Shown here: positions 41,901 to 47,900 of the stretch, one piece after another
How the letters are laid out: each line of letters begins with the position of its first letter
Numbering within the stretch: the first letter of the stretch is position 1
Source of the DNA: the human T2T-CHM13v2.0 reference genome, Homo sapiens
DNA: 64,000 nt
Reading direction: 5' to 3' (one strand)
Assembly: GCF_009914755.1 (NCBI RefSeq)
Contig: NC_060939.1
Position numbers and translations under genes: made by a program
The notes under the pieces: model-generated
The model's input: only the letters and a program-made list of their open reading frames with translations
Told to the model about the DNA's origin: nothing
Databases searched by the model: none

Positions 41901-44900
41901 AACCCCATTATCTCAATCACCATCTCCCTGCTCCTTGCATTTCAGAAATGCCAGCTGCCACTTCCAGGGGGTCATCAATCGGAACTCAAGTGTCTCCAGA
42001 GCTCTCCGGGTCTGCAACAGCTACTGGAGCCGTGAGGTCCGAGCTGGGGGCCACATATGTGGTGGATGTGTGTGTGTGCATGCTTATGTGTGTGTGTGTA
42101 TGTGTGTGTGTGTGTGTGTGTGTGTGTGTGTGAGTGCATGGTGAAAGTGGTCAGTAAGGCTGACGCAGGTAGCTGGGATAGGCTGGGGTGAAGGAGGCAG
42201 CCTGGAGGACCTCAGGCATCTCCCCTACAAAGTCTGAGGTGACCAGGTAGCTGAACATGGCCAAAAGCCAACCCACCACCCCAACCTCAGGGCTGTGGGA
42301 AAGCCAGTGGGACCTGTGCAGGTATGGTTCCGCCTTCGTTGCTCCCTCTCACGTTTTCCCTCTCCTTCGACAGCTTTGGGCGTCCTGTAGGCCTTGGAGT
42401 ACCCCAACTAGTCTCACTTGCCCCAAGGAAACATCCCATTAGACACACATCCCGGGCAGTGTGTGAATGCGTATGTGTGAGGGGGGTGGGGAGGAAGCAG
42501 GGGTTCCTAGAGATTATTGGGGATTGTCCATCCATCCAAATCAGGCCAGCATGGGTGAAGAACATTGATTGTGAATTTAAAGCAAAATGAGATACTTTGT
42601 GTAAAGTGTTTACTAAGGGGAAGGGAGTGGGGAGGAAGAAAAAAGAAGCCATAGAATCAGAGCCCTGGAGCTGAGTTGAAAGAGGACTCAGTGTCCCCCT
42701 CATCAGAGTCCCTTTTTATTAAGGGAAGGAAACTGAGTTCAGAGAGGGCCTGTGACTTGCCCAAGGTCATACAGCTGGTTAGTAACAGAGGACTAAGACC
42801 TAGATCTTCTGGTTACTTTGCCAACCACACTGTCAAGTATCCCAAGGTCAAAGTAAAATTTTAAGATCCCTTGTGCTTGTATAGACCTCTGTCAGGCAGC
42901 ACTGACAGAGGGGACACCCCTCACCCTGAGTGGGGAATCAACCTGCAGAAGAGGAATGTCCCACCGGTTTGGGAGCAAACAGCAGGACTGGGTGGGCTCA
43001 GGGATAAGGATGATGGTGTGGAGGGAGCCGGCTGTCTAACCTCTGACCCCATTAACCACACCCCTTTCCTCCCCACCCCCAACCTATAAAGCACCCAAGC
43101 CTACAAAGTGCTGAAGATGTGGATGCACTGCTGCTGGGCATGGCCTCCCAGATCGCAGAGCGAGAGGACCATGTGTTGGTTGAAGATGTGCGGGGTGAGT
43201 CTGAGGCTGTCCCTGCAGGTTGTGAACTCCTGGCCTCTGGGAAGAGGCTCAGCTGGACTTCCAGAACCAGGTATGAGGGGGTGCCTGGGGCTGGGAGCCT
43301 GCACTGCACTCACTGATGAAAGAGCTTCTGACATGCTGACCATGGCTCCTTCTGGCTCAAGTCTCCTGGGGCTGGTTGGAGCTTGGGGCCTGGACTGGAC
43401 ACTGCTGTGGTGGCCCTGAGCTCCCTCAGACTGTCTGGTATCTTGTCTCCAGATTTCTGGCCTGGGCCACTGAAGTTTTCCCGCACAGACCACCTGGCCA
43501 GCTGCCTGCAGCGGGGCCGGGATCTGGGCCTGCCCTCTTACACCAAGGCCAGGGCAGCACTGGGCTTGTCTCCCATTACCCGCTGGCAGGACATCAACCC
43601 TGCACTCTCCCGGAGCAATGACACTGTGAGGAGGGGTCAGGACCCAGAGGGTAGGGCGGGAGGGACAAGGCACGTGGGCCTGAGACATGGAAGATAGGCA
43701 GTGAAACTTGAGCACAAGAGACAAGCACCTAATGGGAGGGGCAGGGCTTACCCAGATCACTTTTCCCAATATTACATATCAGGATGAAGATTACCAGACC
43801 AGCAAGATTTGGCTTTGCACTCGGATTGTTCAGATCCAGCAAGCGTGTATTAAGCATCTATTGTTTGCTAGGCACTTAATAGGCACTATCTTATTTACTG
43901 TTCTCTCCACCCTCCTGAGTGGGTATAGAAGGTCCTTGACTTAGGAACAATCTGTGCTTTCTTGCACCGATGTTTAAGCCACCTTTCAGGAGTCAGCTGT
44001 TACACCCTGAGCTACCACCTGGACTGGTGGCCCAGGCCAAGGTAGAGCCTGAGGCGGAGGCCCAGCATGCCTTACCCATTCCTGGTGTTCTCAAACCAGT
44101 AGCGGTCACCATCCCACAGCCGCACAAATTGGTCAAGGATGATGGTGCTGAACAGGGGTCCTGTTCAGCTGCTAGCCAAGAGACCAGATTGGGATACCTT
44201 ACCATCTTGACACAGCAGTGTTTCTACAGTTGTGTGCCTATTCTATTGCATTTTGCCCTTACTATTTTATAAAATTATTGGAAAGTGGGGATTTGAAAGG
44301 CCAATAAAGAAGTGATATGAGCATGGGGGCTCGTAAACTTTATAAAATCAATATATAGATAGGAACCACCAGGCACACCAAAAGTAGCAAATCTTTAGCT
44401 TCAAATGGGCCTCAGTGGGATTAAGCTGGTCAAGTGCTATTTACACTGTGGAGAAAAGAAAACTAAAATAAAGGTCAGGTAGAAAATGCTGGTGATATGT
44501 TTTTGAAAACTGTCTCCAAAAGGCAATATATAATCAGGCATTTGATTAAAAAAAATTTTAGTTCTAAAGAATAGAAACCTTTTATAACACATCATTCTGC
44601 CATTCAACTTTTGCACATTCTGATTTTGTCCCTTCAACTTTCATACCTTTTCAAGAACAAGTTATGAATGCGGATTGGCTGGCTGTTTTATTACTTTATA
44701 AAATAGGCAGCTGAATGTGTGAGAGGGTTCCCATAAATGGAGTTCACTTATGTAAAACACTCAGAGAAGTGCCTGGGGCATAATAAGCACTGTATAGGAG
44801 TGAGTTACTGTTACTGTCATTTATTATTATCATCCCTGGGGCTAATCCCTGGGAGCCACCTCTTTGCCTTAGGGTGGGTGCCGTGTCCTTTCTCTTACTT

Positions 44901-47900
44901 CTGCCCCTTCTTGGTTCCAGGTACTGGAGGCCACAGCTGCCCTGTACAACCAGGACTTATCCTGGCTAGAGCTGCTCCCTGGGGGACTCCTGGAGAGCCA
45001 CCGGGACCCTGGACCTCTGTTCAGCACCATCGTCCTTGAACAATTTGTGCGGCTACGGGATGGTGACCGCTACTGGTTTGAGAACACCAGGAATGGGTAA
45101 GGCGTGCTGGGCCTCCGCCTCAGGCTCTACCTCGGCCTGGGCCCCAGACCCTCTTTCTGGCCTTAGACAGCCCCCATGAGCCCTTGATTCCAAGCCAGCC
45201 CACCACCCACTTCCCAACACCTCTGGGTCTCTTTTCTCACCTGGGTCCTTGGGCCTGGGGTTGCTGGAGGCCTGCATCCCCTTCCCATCCCAGTGACTTC
45301 TACTTACTCCAACTTAGGCTGTTCTCCAAGAAGGAGATTGAAGAAATCCGAAATACCACCCTGCAGGACGTGCTGGTCGCTGTTATCAACATTGACCCCA
45401 GTGCTCTGCAGCCCAATGTCTTTGTCTGGCATAAAGGTGAGTGGCCAAGGGGTGGCTGGAGGAGTGGTGGGTCGGGAGCCTCGTCCCTCTTCAGCTCTGG
45501 GCTTGGCTCAATGTGGCTGAACGTCAATCTCTGTGCTCCAAGAGGGGAGTGAGCTGTGGTTCTGCCCTTGGGAACTCCAGGTGCCAGGGCCACCACTTGC
45601 AGCTGTGTAGGGTCCCCTCTGCAGAACTCCAGGAAGTGCTGAGTGAGGGCAGAACTGAGACTCAGAGAGAGCTGGTGAGGAGGTTCACATTCGGCTGAGA
45701 TGGAGCTCGGGCTAGGTATAATATTAGGAGGGCTCAGTGCAGTGAGGATATCCCAACCCTACAGCAGTGAGGGAAGCGTGTGTGTGTGTGTGTGTGTGTG
45801 TGTGTACACTTCTGTGTGTGAGGGAGAGATGGAGGTTGGGATTCATTTTTTACCCCACTTGTTACCCAAGGCAGCCCCTTCCCCTCAGCTACCCAGAGTG
45901 CCCCCACCCCCTTTCTGCCACCCTAACCTCCTCCGTGATCCTGTGCCAGCACCTGTGGCCCAGCACCCAGGACGCTGGCTTCCTCTGCCTTCCCAGGAGA
46001 CCCCTGTCCGCAGCCGAGACAGCTCAGCACTGAAGGCCTGCCAGCGTGTGCTCCCTCTGTTGTTCGTGACTATTTTGAGGGCAGTGGATTTGGCTTCGGG
46101 GTCACCATCGGGACCCTCTGTTGCTTCCCTTTGGGTAAAATCATGGACAGAGTGGGGTGGGGTGAGAGATGCAAGCTAGGGGATGCAGTTTGGGTGGTTC
46201 CACTAATGACAACAAACCACGCAAACCACACAGAGCATGGTCCCTTTGGGTAGGAGAATGAAACATTAGAGGAGGAAGGGACAAGAGAAGTGTTTGACCT
46301 GCAGAGAAGTCAGCTCCAGGGAGAATTGCCTCCCTGTTTTCCTGGGACTGCCCCCAGGGCCCAGCATTGGTCAGGAGCCAGGGGGAATCTATAATCCACA
46401 GCTTTTTGCAGGCCTGAGCCTAGAGGACTGTCAGAGGCAAATCCCTGTTTAAGAACAAGGGCTAAGACGGGGCGCGGTGGCTCATGCCTGTAATCCCAGC
46501 ACTTTGAGAGGCCGAGGCAGGCGGATCACCTGAGGTCAGGAGTTTGAGACCAGCCTGATCAACATGGAGAAACCATGTCTCTCCTAAAAATACAAAATTA
46601 GCCGGGCATGGTGGCGCATGCCTGTAATCCCAGCTACTCGGGAGGCTGAGGCAGGAGAATCAATTGAATCTGGGAGGCAGAGGTTGCAGTGAGCTTAGAT
46701 CGCGCCATTGCACTCCAGCCTGGGCAACAAGAGCGAAACTCTGTCAAAAAAAGAAAGAAAGAGAGAGAGAGAGAATGGAAGGAAGGAAAGAAGGAAGGAA
46801 GGAAGGAAGGAAGGAAGGAAGGGAGGGAGGAAGAGCAGGCTGGGGCAGACATAGTCGCTGGAGTGAGGGCTTGGGGCTTAGTCTTTGGCAAGGCTGTGTG
46901 TGGGTCAGCTAGCAGCCTGGTGGGGTGAGTCTAGTCTCTGACACAAGGACTCTGGACTTAGTCTCTGGCCAGGAAGGGACGTGAGTGGTGGAATCTGAGG
47001 AGGAAGGGTGGGTATCTTAGATGCTACCCAAAGCTCCCCATGGGATGCAGAGCAGCTTCCCCCAGGGACCTTCCCAATCTGAAACAATTGAGCAAGCTGA
47101 CCTAGGAGGTGGGGACAATAGGTGGTATTGCCAGGTAAGGAGCTGAGAAAGGAGCTGCTTCCATCCCCTAGACCCCCACGTCTCCCTGAACCTCTGCCTC
47201 TGCCCTCCCAGTGAGCCTGCTCAGTGCCTGGATTGTTGCCCGGCTCCGGATGAGAAATTTCAAGAGGCTCCAGGGCCAGGACCGCCAGAGCATCGTGTCT
47301 GAGAAGCTCGTGGGAGGCATGGAAGGTAGGTCTAGGGCTGGCCAGGGTGGTGGTAGGGAGGACATGGCTCAGCGCTACAGCTACCCACCTCCACCCCAGC
47401 AGCCTAAGGAAAAGGCCTCCCTTTTCTAGGACTGTAGGCAAGGCCACAGTGGCATTAAGCAGAAGTTGGACATGGAGTCCTGCAGCCTCCAGAGTTTCTC
47501 ATGTGCAGCAGTCATTGGACCTTGCCTTACAGGGAGTAAGTGTAAGACCCTGTAGTGATCTTACAGGGTCACTATGACTTACGAATCCCTGGGAACTGCT
47601 GATTTGTAGCATCTCACGCTGGAACTCCAGGCAACAGAGAAGTGGTTAATGAAGGTCCAGAGTCAGACTGGGATTGGAATCTTGGTTCCACCACCACTAT
47701 GGGCTATTGGGCCTTAGGCAGATTTTTGAATCTCTCTAAACCATTTTTTTCTTATCCATAAAATAGGAATAATAATAGCACCTACCTCACAGGTTTATAA
47801 TTAAATGAAATAATTCATGCAAAGCACTTGGTATAGTATTGAGCACATAGAAAACATTCAGGAAATGATAGTTACTATTCTTTTCATGGGGCTAGAGGCA

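What the first reader, a model, noticed from the sequence alone, without database searches (positions are those of the whole stretch)
44024..45147. Built-in antisense to a DUOX1 splice donor: inverted exon copy ~850 nt upstream in the same pre-mRNA
Seen: 44024-44161 is the reverse complement of 45011-45147, which is the last 86 nt of the 176-nt DUOX1 exon 44921-45096, its donor (ATGG|GTAAGG) and 51 nt of the next intron. By eye there are 7 substitutions and 1 indel, and the donor lies inside an uninterrupted matching run of about 45 nt. I see no such copy in the paralogous DUOX2 intron (12244-12809). Established: long intramolecular duplexes can mask splice sites and are ADAR substrates. Inference: the DUOX1 pre-mRNA can form a ~135-bp stem that hides this donor. 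Skipping the 176-nt exon would frameshift before the TM domains, so this could be a DUOX1-specific cis attenuator, or a site of recoding A-to-I edits in [25 protein letters not shown].
Basis: partly seen in the sequence, partly recalled or inferred. Interest (0 to 1): 0.82.

Follow-up and report, generated by a model that had tools for sequence, protein, structure and literature searches.

The report
Inverted exon-donor copy inside DUOX1 intron
A 140-base backwards copy of the end of one DUOX1 exon and its splice site sits in the intron just upstream, and published RNA data show the two copies pair and are edited in cells, but nothing yet shows that this controls DUOX1.

Summary
44029-44161 is the reverse complement of 45011-45143: 133 nt with 7 differences, or 141 nt with one indel. 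The donor 45096|45097 lies in a 47-nt perfect run.

The copy comes from DUOX1 (94% identity), not DUOX2 (85%). All 4 changes on the copy are CpG transitions. The other 3 differences are changes in the exon. One of these is the Asp-to-Glu change seen only in apes, so the copy predates the ape common ancestor. A 10-bp snap-back palindrome straddles its right junction, which points to a templated repair insertion.

New here: a published CDS editing catalogue (PMC8897444, Supplementary Data 3) lists 14 T-to-C sites in DUOX1. They map uniquely to 45030-45079, all inside the exon arm. Stranded data assign them to RNA antisense to DUOX1. So the hairpin forms and is edited by ADAR in vivo, but on the opposite-strand transcript.

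That catalogue has no A-to-G (recoding) site in DUOX1. Donor masking and exon skipping could not be tested here.

Most likely this is an old, neutrally decaying duplication scar that gives any transcript crossing it a long dsRNA. It is a new member of the known class of non-repetitive edited dsRNAs.

The parts
44021..44161 (+). Arm 1: intronic inverted copy (core 44029-44161) of the exon end, donor and intron start. It is read as antisense to the donor within the DUOX1 pre-mRNA.
   Evidence: It is 94% identical to DUOX1 and 85% to DUOX2. It retains 3 of the 7 source CpGs.
45011..45150 (+). Arm 2: last 86 nt of the exon 44921-45096, the donor ATGG|GTAAGG, and 47-54 nt of the next intron.
45057..45103 (+). 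47-nt perfectly paired run containing the 5' splice site 45096|45097.
   Evidence: The same 47-mer is also perfectly complementary between the copy and the DUOX2 exon/donor.
44162..45010 (+). 849-nt loop. It contains the 3' part of the upstream intron, the acceptor at 44920|44921 and the first 90 nt of the exon.
44147..44169 (.). Junction palindrome GCTGAACAGG-GGT-CCTGTTCAGC straddling the right end of the copy (44161|44162). Read as the signature of snap-back templated synthesis.
   Evidence: It is the only perfect hairpin of 7 bp or more (loop up to 8) in the 1,295-nt intron. A stem of 10 bp or more appeared anywhere in 2 of 200 shuffles.
44021..44028 (.). Left junction: imperfect similarity (1 mismatch, 1 indel) to the reverse complement of about 45142-45150. 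Possibly microhomology used for priming.
   Evidence: This is inference.
45030..45079 (-). 14 published T-to-C sites, meaning A-to-I on minus-strand RNA, at hg38 chr15:45141004-45141053.
   Evidence: The pattern of 14 positions is all-T at exactly one place in the window.

Best explanation
This is an old, DUOX1-derived inverted micro-duplication. About 140 nt, comprising the exon end, the 5' splice site and the start of the next intron, were copied backwards into the preceding intron. The likely cause is a template-switching repair or replication event, with microhomology at one junction and a snap-back palindrome at the other.

The event happened before the common ancestor of living apes. Since then the copy has decayed as neutral DNA would.

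The consequence is structural. Any RNA that crosses both arms, on either strand, can fold into a 133-141-bp nearly perfect hairpin with an 849-nt loop. That hairpin does form in cells and is deaminated by ADAR. The documented case is a low-abundance transcript antisense to DUOX1.

Shown: the repeat, its DUOX1 origin, its minimum age, its decay pattern, and the coincidence of the editing cluster with the arm. Inferred: the repair mechanism, neutrality, and that the sense pre-mRNA folds the same way but mostly escapes because splicing factors and helicases compete. I judge a material effect on DUOX1 splicing to be unlikely but not excluded.
For: Repeat and energetics:
- The antisense-strand duplex is equally stable, -290.9 vs -294.0 kcal/mol.

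Origin from DUOX1:
- 93.6% identity to DUOX1 vs 85.2% to DUOX2.

Decay:
- The 4 copy-specific changes are all CpG to TpG/CpA. 4 of 7 source CpGs are lost and there are 0 non-CpG changes.
- 0 of 7 differences are compensated.

Polarity and age:
- At 45016, 45040 and 45055 the copy agrees with DUOX2.
- Codon 45038-45040 is GAA (Glu) in the exon and GAC (Asp) in the copy.
- Glu is found in Homo, Pan troglodytes, Pan paniscus, Gorilla, Pongo and Nomascus.
- Asp is found in Colobus, Rhinopithecus, Callithrix, Aotus, Saguinus, Eulemur, Pteropus and Loxodonta and in the DUOX1 chain 6wxr_A, which I recall to be mouse.

Not an assembly artefact:
- The hg38-to-window offset changes by only 5 nt between 24.6 kb and 45.0 kb, so GRCh38 must also carry the ~140-nt copy.

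In vivo dsRNA:
- 14 of the 21 T's in the exonic arm are published T-to-C sites. 0 of 16 T's in the rest of the exon are, and there are none elsewhere in the DUOX1 CDS (hypergeometric P=1.9e-5 within the exon).
- A 5'-G neighbour occurs at 1 of 14 called sites vs 3 of 7 uncalled sites, as expected for ADAR.
- Stranded data: antisense reads were edited at up to 8 of 9 in retina and 3 of 3 in fibroblasts. Sense T-to-C was 0-1 of 381-449 reads in tissues (header).
- The source pipeline kept uniquely mapped reads only and removed paralog-predicted mismatches by BLAT.
Against: - Neutrality is argued from only 7 differences.
- Zero non-CpG changes on the copy over an estimated 18+ million years is somewhat fewer than I would expect: about 1.4-3.4 by my own rough rates, which come from no tool. 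This could reflect inter-arm gene conversion or constraint.
- All three exon-side changes weaken the stem, which could be chance or selection against pairing.
- Proof that the duplex forms in cells raises, rather than lowers, the chance that it also forms on the sense pre-mRNA, where it would bury a constitutive donor.
- The editing catalogue is CDS-only, so nothing is known about the intronic arm on either strand.
- The antisense transcript itself is unannotated in the RefSeq table supplied, and its coverage is tiny (1-10 pooled reads).
- Edited reads from the intronic arm of the sense pre-mRNA differ from antisense exon-arm reads at only about 4 diagnostic positions. Strand assignment therefore rests on the source paper's mapping. 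I did not see the reads.
Confidence: 0.62

Rival explanations
1. Cis attenuator. On the sense pre-mRNA the upstream arm pairs with the emerging exon end and hides the donor from U1. The 176-nt exon is then skipped or the next intron retained, the frame shifts, and NMD lowers DUOX1 output. ADAR or helicases tune the effect.
For: - The donor lies in a 47-nt perfect run of a -294 kcal/mol stem.
- Arm 1 cannot be spliced away before the acceptor at 44920, only 90 nt before arm 2, has been transcribed (sequence logic).
- Forming the stem gains about 196 kcal/mol over the arms' own folds.
- The arms do pair in cells.
Against: - There is no sign of selection for pairing.
- No alternative exon boundary is annotated between 43626 and 45317 in the supplied RefSeq table, although pure skipping would not show there.
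- No sense A-to-G site at 1% or more in this exon across GTEx, whereas T-to-C sites in the same bases passed every filter.
- The exon is constitutive, and its donor has G at -1 and GTAAG at +1 to +5.
- No RNA-seq junction data could be examined.
Confidence: 0.15
2. The published T-to-C cluster really comes from the sense DUOX1 pre-mRNA. On this reading, hyper-edited reads of the intronic arm, which is nearly the reverse complement of the exon arm, were placed on the exon and so look antisense. The sense stem then forms and is edited, while mature mRNA escapes.
For: - The partners of all 14 sites are A's on the plus strand at 44093-44142, in the same sequence context.
- The two sources differ at only 4 positions in this stretch.
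- Fibroblasts show 38-53 sense reads beside 3-4 'antisense' reads, a ratio compatible with pre-mRNA.
Against: - Retina shows 1-10 'antisense' reads beside only 1-3 sense reads.
- The 15-tissue set shows 381-449 sense reads and 0 antisense reads.
- The pipeline kept only uniquely mapped reads.
- A read from the intronic arm always fits its own locus better, by at least 2-3 mismatches.
Confidence: 0.15
3. Recoding site. ADAR edits adenosines of the exon arm in the sense transcript and changes DUOX1 residues in [25 protein letters not shown].
For: - The architecture of an exon plus an intronic complementary sequence covering a splice site resembles classical recoding substrates (recalled).
- 19 A's lie in the exonic arm.
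Against: - 0 of the 1,517 catalogued CDS A-to-G sites are in DUOX1. The catalogue kept sites with 1% or more editing in at least one tissue type.
- The region was not masked, since T-to-C sites in it were reported.
Confidence: 0.04
4. Assembly or alignment artefact private to T2T-CHM13.
For: None found.
Against: - Offset arithmetic shows GRCh38 has the same length here to within 5 nt.
- The editing cluster, seen in RNA from people other than the assembly's source, is confined to the arm.
Confidence: 0.01

Closest known systems
Non-repetitive intramolecular dsRNAs / editing-enriched regions of the human transcriptome (dsRNAscan catalogue, PMC11838218; abstract and passages seen)
   Same: Two unique-sequence inverted arms in one transcription unit, edited by ADAR. 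For the 4,597 edited non-repetitive dsRNAs that paper reports medians of 144 bp, 30 contiguous bp, -184.8 kcal/mol, 87.5% paired and a 509-nt loop. This one has 133-141 bp, 47 contiguous bp, -294 kcal/mol, 95% paired and an 849-nt loop.
   Different: One arm is a coding exon end with a constitutive 5' splice site. I could not check whether this locus is in that catalogue: DUOX1 is absent from the main text and I did not search its tables.
T-to-C CDS clusters from opposite-strand transcripts pairing with a reversed paralogous sequence (TOR1B/TOR1A, CLDN9/CLDN6; PMC8897444 section 10, read)
   Same: There is a cluster of 10 or more T-to-C sites in a coding exon, assigned to the antisense strand. 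The complementary partner is a reversed, related sequence nearby.
   Different: There the partner is a neighbouring paralogous gene reached by an extended 3'UTR. Here it is a 140-nt fossil of the same exon inside the same gene, 849 nt away. The paper does not discuss DUOX1: the gene name occurs only in the supplementary spreadsheet, as the 14 T-to-C rows.
Exon plus intronic editing-complementary-sequence hairpins of classical recoding sites, e.g. GRIA2 R/G (recalled, not tested here)
   Same: An exon-intron duplex that includes the 5' splice site, so that pairing, editing and splicing compete.
   Different: Those ECSs are short, conserved, lie in the downstream intron and give high-level recoding. 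This arm lies upstream, is a recent duplicate, and no recoding is catalogued.
Splice-site-obstructing long-range RNA structures (PCCRs; PMC8052449, passages seen)
   Same: Long-range complementarity that overlaps a splice site and loops out an acceptor.
   Different: PCCRs are defined by conservation across vertebrates and exclude exons beyond 10 nt. This stem is exonic, lineage-restricted by inference, and far longer. DUOX1 has 0 occurrences in the 3 held supplementary files.
Templated insertions / template-switch inverted duplications from microhomology-mediated repair (polymerase theta snap-back synthesis, MMBIR; recalled)
   Same: An inverted copy of nearby sequence, imperfect microhomology at one junction, and a short self-templated palindrome at the other.
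   Different: At about 140 nt it is longer than the typical short templated insertions I recall. The mechanism is inferred from sequence only.

Membership tests
ADAR-edited long intramolecular dsRNA (editing-enriched inverted repeat) | Two reverse-complementary arms within reach of one transcript, giving a duplex well above ~30 bp | tested here: met
   133 nt ungapped at 95%, 47 contiguous bp, -294 kcal/mol.
ADAR-edited long intramolecular dsRNA (editing-enriched inverted repeat) | Clustered A-to-G mismatches in RNA confined to an arm, with the ADAR neighbour preference | tested here: met
   14 published sites at 45030-45079, all in the arm. The 5'-G neighbour occurs at 1 of 14 called vs 3 of 7 uncalled sites. 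The editing is on minus-strand RNA.
ADAR-edited long intramolecular dsRNA (editing-enriched inverted repeat) | Editing on both arms of the same transcript | not testable with these tools
   The only dataset reachable is CDS-only, and the intronic arm is outside it.
Exon/ECS recoding site | A-to-G change at coding adenosines of the sense mRNA | tested here: not met
   0 of 1,517 catalogued A-to-G CDS sites are in DUOX1. All 14 DUOX1 rows are T-to-C.
Splice-regulating long-range RNA structure | Complementarity overlapping a used splice site | tested here: met
   The donor 45096|45097 lies inside the 47-nt perfect run.
Splice-regulating long-range RNA structure | Conservation or compensatory substitutions that keep the pairing | tested here: not met
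   0 of 7 differences are compensated. The 4 copy-side changes are CpG decay. Other species' DNA could not be examined.
Splice-regulating long-range RNA structure | Alternative use of the masked site (skipping or retention) that depends on the stem | not testable with these tools
   No RNA-seq junction data were available. The supplied RefSeq table lists no alternative exon boundary in 43626-45317.
Templated (template-switch) inverted insertion | Inverted copy of a nearby template with junctional microhomology or a snap-back palindrome | tested here: met
   A 10-bp/3-nt-loop palindrome exactly at the right junction is the only such hairpin in the intron. There is imperfect similarity at the left junction.
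Templated (template-switch) inverted insertion | Empty site in outgroup species | not testable with these tools
   No primate genome DNA is reachable. Only a minimum age was obtained, from protein states.

The most novel reading that the evidence does not exclude
The copy is a primate-lineage built-in antisense that throttles dual-oxidase output. On the sense pre-mRNA it competes with U1 for the exon donor, diverting a tunable share of DUOX1 transcripts to exon skipping and NMD. ADAR1 and dsRNA helicases would set that share, linking interferon or inflammatory state to epithelial H2O2 capacity. The copy is also perfectly complementary over 47 nt to the DUOX2 exon/donor (-248.7 kcal/mol overall). 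The excised DUOX1 intron could therefore act in trans on DUOX2, which is transcribed about 16 kb away in the same cells.
Probability: 0.1. Interest if true: 0.7.

Novelty: new member of a known kind. Interest (0 to 1): 0.4.

Why it matters
DUOX1 makes hydrogen peroxide at airway, thyroid and skin surfaces. A structure that buries one of its constitutive splice donors in 133 bp of dsRNA is an obvious candidate for lineage-specific regulation.

What is now established is more modest. This is a datable, exon-derived inverted duplicate. It explains an uninterpreted 14-site editing cluster in a published table. It also shows that a repair scar can create an ADAR substrate out of coding sequence without any repeat element or paralogous gene.

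It gives a clean natural test case for how far a nearly perfect long-range duplex can interfere with a strong splice site in vivo. It is also a warning that T-to-C 'antisense' clusters in exons can mark intragenic fossils.

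Tried and rejected
- DUOX2 as the source of the copy: rejected, 85% vs 94% identity. DUOX2-specific bases within 45016-45056 are not in the copy, so it is not a chimaera.
- DUOX2 mRNA reads as the cause of the T-to-C signal: rejected. They would map as sense, and DUOX2 has C for T at only one of the sites I checked by eye.
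- A sense/antisense duplex over the whole exon: rejected, because 0 of 16 T's outside the arm are edited.
- Rfam: 0 matches at E up to 1 in 43400-45500, so there is no known RNA family or miRNA in the arms.
- Literature searches (listings only; none of the listed papers opened except where noted):
  - DUOX1 + exon skipping: 5 papers.
  - DUOX1 + A-to-I: 3 papers.
  - DUOX1 + RNA editing + ADAR: 5 papers.
  - DUOX1 + antisense transcript: 4 papers.
  - No title or abstract start concerned a DUOX1 RNA structure, this exon's splicing or its editing.
- PCCR catalogue: DUOX1 is absent from the 3 held supplementary files. Its PDF supplements and track hub could not be seen.
- Supplement file 3 of PMC8897444 was stored cut, and two PDFs were unreadable. 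Per-tissue GTEx levels of the 14 sites therefore remain unknown.
- A z-score for the 1.2-kb fold was not available above 1,000 nt. A shuffled-arm duplex control was used instead.
- Presence or absence of the copy in other primates could not be tested, because no eukaryotic genome DNA is reachable. Only the protein-level polarity test was possible.
- Cryptic splice-site scoring of the copy was not attempted, because no MaxEnt-type tool is available.

Full report
**1. The observation**

The repeat finder returns one inverted pair in 43400-45500: 44029-44161 and 45011-45143, 133 nt, 95% complementary, 849 nt apart. BLAST extends it to 44021-44161 vs 45150-45011: 141 columns, 93.6% identity, 8 mismatches, 1 gap, E=5.8e-56.

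The core has 7 differences of 133. The longest perfect runs are 47 nt (45057-45103) and 28 nt. The donor 45096|45097 lies in the 47-nt run.

Arm 2 is the last 86 nt of the exon 44921-45096 plus the donor and the start of the next intron. The exon is in frame from 44921 and matches residues 464-521 of DUOX1 chain 7d3e_A.

The segment has three copies in the window: the DUOX1 exon, the DUOX2 exon and the intronic copy. So the DUOX2 intron has none.

The duplex is worth -294.0 kcal/mol, against -82.3 +/- 6.5 for 100 shuffles of arm 1. It is part of the MFE fold of 44000-45200. The arms fold on their own at only -49.9 and -48.3 kcal/mol.

**2. Where the copy came from and how old it is**

The copy is 93.6% identical to DUOX1 and 85.2% to DUOX2. 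In its intronic part it follows DUOX1. It therefore derives from DUOX1 itself, even though it lies in the orientation of DUOX2.

The seven differences fall into two groups.
- Four are on the copy, at 44140, 44116, 44068 and 44039. All are CpG to TpG/CpA: 4 of the 7 source CpGs are lost, and there are no non-CpG changes.
- At the other three (45016, 45040, 45055) the copy agrees with DUOX2, so the exon is the side that changed.

One of those three is visible in protein. Codon 45038-45040 is GAA (Glu) in the exon and GAC (Asp) in the copy.
- I fetched 120 dual-oxidase proteins and inspected 21, three of which lacked the anchor motif. Glu is found in Homo, Pan troglodytes, Pan paniscus, Gorilla, Pongo and Nomascus.
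- Asp is found in Colobus, Rhinopithecus, Callithrix, Aotus, Saguinus, Eulemur, Pteropus and Loxodonta.
- Across the 102 proteins with the motif the tally is D 55, N 24, E 22, S 1. The 22 E's are 20 entries of the DUOX1 group headed by the apes (one of them unnamed) and 2 Tupaia DUOX2 entries.
- The DUOX1 chain 6wxr_A, which I recall to be mouse, also has Asp.

The Asp-to-Glu change therefore arose on the ape stem, and the copy, which keeps Asp, was made before it. By divergence dates that I recall, not from any tool, the copy is at least about 17-20 million years old. The 5.3% arm divergence and the loss of 4 of 7 CpGs fit roughly 20-45 million years, provided the arms have not converted each other.

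None of the 7 differences is compensated. In the sense RNA they give 3 G:U wobbles and 4 mismatches. That is the pattern of neutral decay, although the numbers are small.

**3. How it arose (inference)**

The only perfect hairpin of 7 bp or more (loop up to 8) in the whole 1,295-nt intron is a 10-bp stem with a 3-nt loop at 44147-44169. It straddles the right end of the copy at 44161|44162. A stem of 10 bp or more appeared anywhere in only 2 of 200 shuffles.

The 8 nt beyond the copy are thus templated by the copy's own end. At the left end, 44021-44028 resembles the reverse complement of about 45142-45150 with one mismatch and one indel.

An inverted copy of sequence about 1 kb away, priming at imperfect microhomology, and a snap-back palindrome are together what I recall of template-switching repair (polymerase-theta end joining, MMBIR).

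The copy is not an assembly artefact. The offset between hg38 coordinates and window coordinates is 45,095,979 at 20.6 and 24.6 kb and 45,095,974 at 45.0 kb. GRCh38 therefore has the same length here to within 5 nt.

**4. Evidence that the hairpin exists in cells**

The recoding survey of Gabay et al. (PMC8897444) lists DUOX1 14 times in its supplementary spreadsheet. All 14 are T-to-C rows of Supplementary Data 3, at hg38 chr15:45141004-45141053.

The pattern of their 14 relative positions is all-T at exactly one place in the 64-kb window, 45030-45079. That stretch lies inside the exonic part of arm 2.
- 14 of the 21 T's of the exonic arm are sites.
- 0 of the 16 T's in the rest of the exon are sites.
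- There are none elsewhere in the DUOX1 CDS (hypergeometric P=1.9e-5 within the exon).
- The edited adenosine has a 5' G at 1 of 14 called sites and at 3 of 7 uncalled sites, as ADAR prefers.

The table's header allows the strand-specific counts to be read.

| Dataset | Sense coverage | Sense T-to-C | Antisense coverage | Antisense mismatches |
|---|---|---|---|---|
| 15 tissues | 381-449 | 0-1 | 0 | 0 |
| Blood | 0 | 0 | 0 | 0 |
| Retina | 1-3 | 0 | 1-10 | up to 8 of 9 |
| Fibroblasts | 38-53 | 0 | 3-4 | up to 3 of 3 |

The authors interpret T-to-C sites in general as A-to-I editing of opposite-strand RNA. They used uniquely mapped reads and removed paralog-predicted mismatches with BLAT. They do not discuss DUOX1.

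The cluster stops at the arm boundary instead of covering the exon. The partner is therefore the inverted copy, not sense DUOX1 RNA or DUOX2. The antisense-strand duplex is as stable as the sense one, -290.9 kcal/mol.

So the two arms do pair in nuclear RNA and recruit ADAR. The documented molecule is a rare transcript antisense to DUOX1, whose origin I could not determine.

One caveat applies. Edited reads from the intronic arm of the sense pre-mRNA would differ from such reads at only about four positions. The retina and tissue coverage ratios argue against that source, but I did not see the reads.

**5.

Recoding: none of the 1,517 catalogued CDS A-to-G sites is in DUOX1, although T-to-C sites in the same bases passed all filters. 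The catalogue discarded sites edited below 1% in all tissue types. Recoding at or above that level is therefore not supported.

Attenuation:
- Arm 1 is still present when arm 2 is transcribed, because the acceptor lies only 90 nt before arm 2.
- Forming the stem gains about 196 kcal/mol.
- Against this, the exon is constitutive, the donor is strong (G at -1, GTAAG at +1 to +5), no alternative boundary is annotated in 43626-45317, and the sequence shows no selection for pairing.
- If skipping occurred, the edited exon arm would leave with the lariat. The lack of recoding is therefore only weak evidence against attenuation.
- I could not examine junction reads.
- I put a material effect on splicing at about 15% and a selected function lower.

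**6. Comparison with what is known**

The structure belongs to the class of non-repetitive edited dsRNAs. For its 4,597 members dsRNAscan reports medians of 144 bp, 30 contiguous bp, -184.8 kcal/mol, 87.5% paired and a 509-nt loop (PMC11838218, passages). This one is at or beyond each of those values.

It resembles the TOR1B/TOR1A and CLDN9/CLDN6 cases of PMC8897444 (section 10 read). The difference is that the partner here is a fossil of the same exon within the same gene, not a neighbouring paralogue.

It is outside the PCCR catalogue by construction, since exons are excluded and vertebrate conservation is required. DUOX1 is absent from the held supplements.

Rfam has nothing here.

Four searches pairing DUOX1 with exon skipping, A-to-I, RNA editing/ADAR and antisense transcript listed 17 rows, with some papers repeated across searches. 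None of their titles or abstract starts concerned this structure (listings only).

**7. Verdict**

This is a real, old, DUOX1-derived inverted duplicate of an exon end and its donor. It is probably a repair scar, it is decaying neutrally, and it makes a long dsRNA that is demonstrably edited on the antisense transcript. It is a new member of a known kind.

It explains an uninterpreted published editing cluster. It leaves one open and testable question: whether the sense pre-mRNA folds the same way often enough to matter.

Noticed in passing
39118-40660 vs 15985-14437; 44917-45235 vs 12247-11928; 45213-45443 vs 11584-11354; 51423-51695 vs 8413-8142; 52290-52473 vs 6009-5826; 59826-59943 vs 1740-1623: DUOX1 and DUOX2 share tracts whose similarity runs into introns: 93.8% over 1,553 nt (828 intronic), 88.1%, 97.4% (112 intronic), 97.1%, 96.2% and 96.6%. 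Other exons are only 72-87% alike. This is the mosaic expected from interlocus gene conversion between the head-to-head paralogues. Conversion over exons 4-7 is in print (PMC4467073, one passage seen). The exon studied here lies in such a tract.
   Followed up: partly
20535-20755 (DUOXA2 exon) and 24608-24828 (DUOXA1 exon): These paralogous exons are inverted relative to each other and 83% alike over 221 nt. The same published table lists 10 A-to-G sites in DUOXA1, which map to 24631-24794. It also lists 20 T-to-C sites in DUOXA2. I mapped 14 of these, and they begin at 20567. All are A's of minus-strand RNA, as if DUOXA1 transcripts read on through DUOXA2 and fold back. This matches the extended-3'UTR/paralogue model of that paper.
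   Followed up: partly
45038-45040 (DUOX1 residue 503 in chain 7d3e_A numbering): An Asp-to-Glu substitution is confined to apes among the named DUOX1 sequences inspected. Most other mammals have Asp or Asn at this position (tally D 55, N 24, E 22, S 1 of 102). Residue 491 (query position 28) is Arg in the great apes and in the two colobine DUOX1 sequences, Gln in the gibbon, and Gly in the other species shown.
   Followed up: partly
45030-45079, minus strand: Some RNA is transcribed antisense to DUOX1 here in retina and fibroblasts (1-10 pooled reads). The supplied RefSeq table has no minus-strand gene over this region. Its start, end and relation to SHF or DUOXA1 are unknown.
   Followed up: no
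11572-11939 (DUOX2 intron): The DUOX2 intron homologous to DUOX1 45097-45317 is interrupted between the two similarity blocks (DUOX2 11928 and 11584). The interrupting element matches other repeats in the window at about 80-89% and is masked in NCBI's file. It looks like an Alu-sized insertion absent from DUOX1.
   Followed up: no
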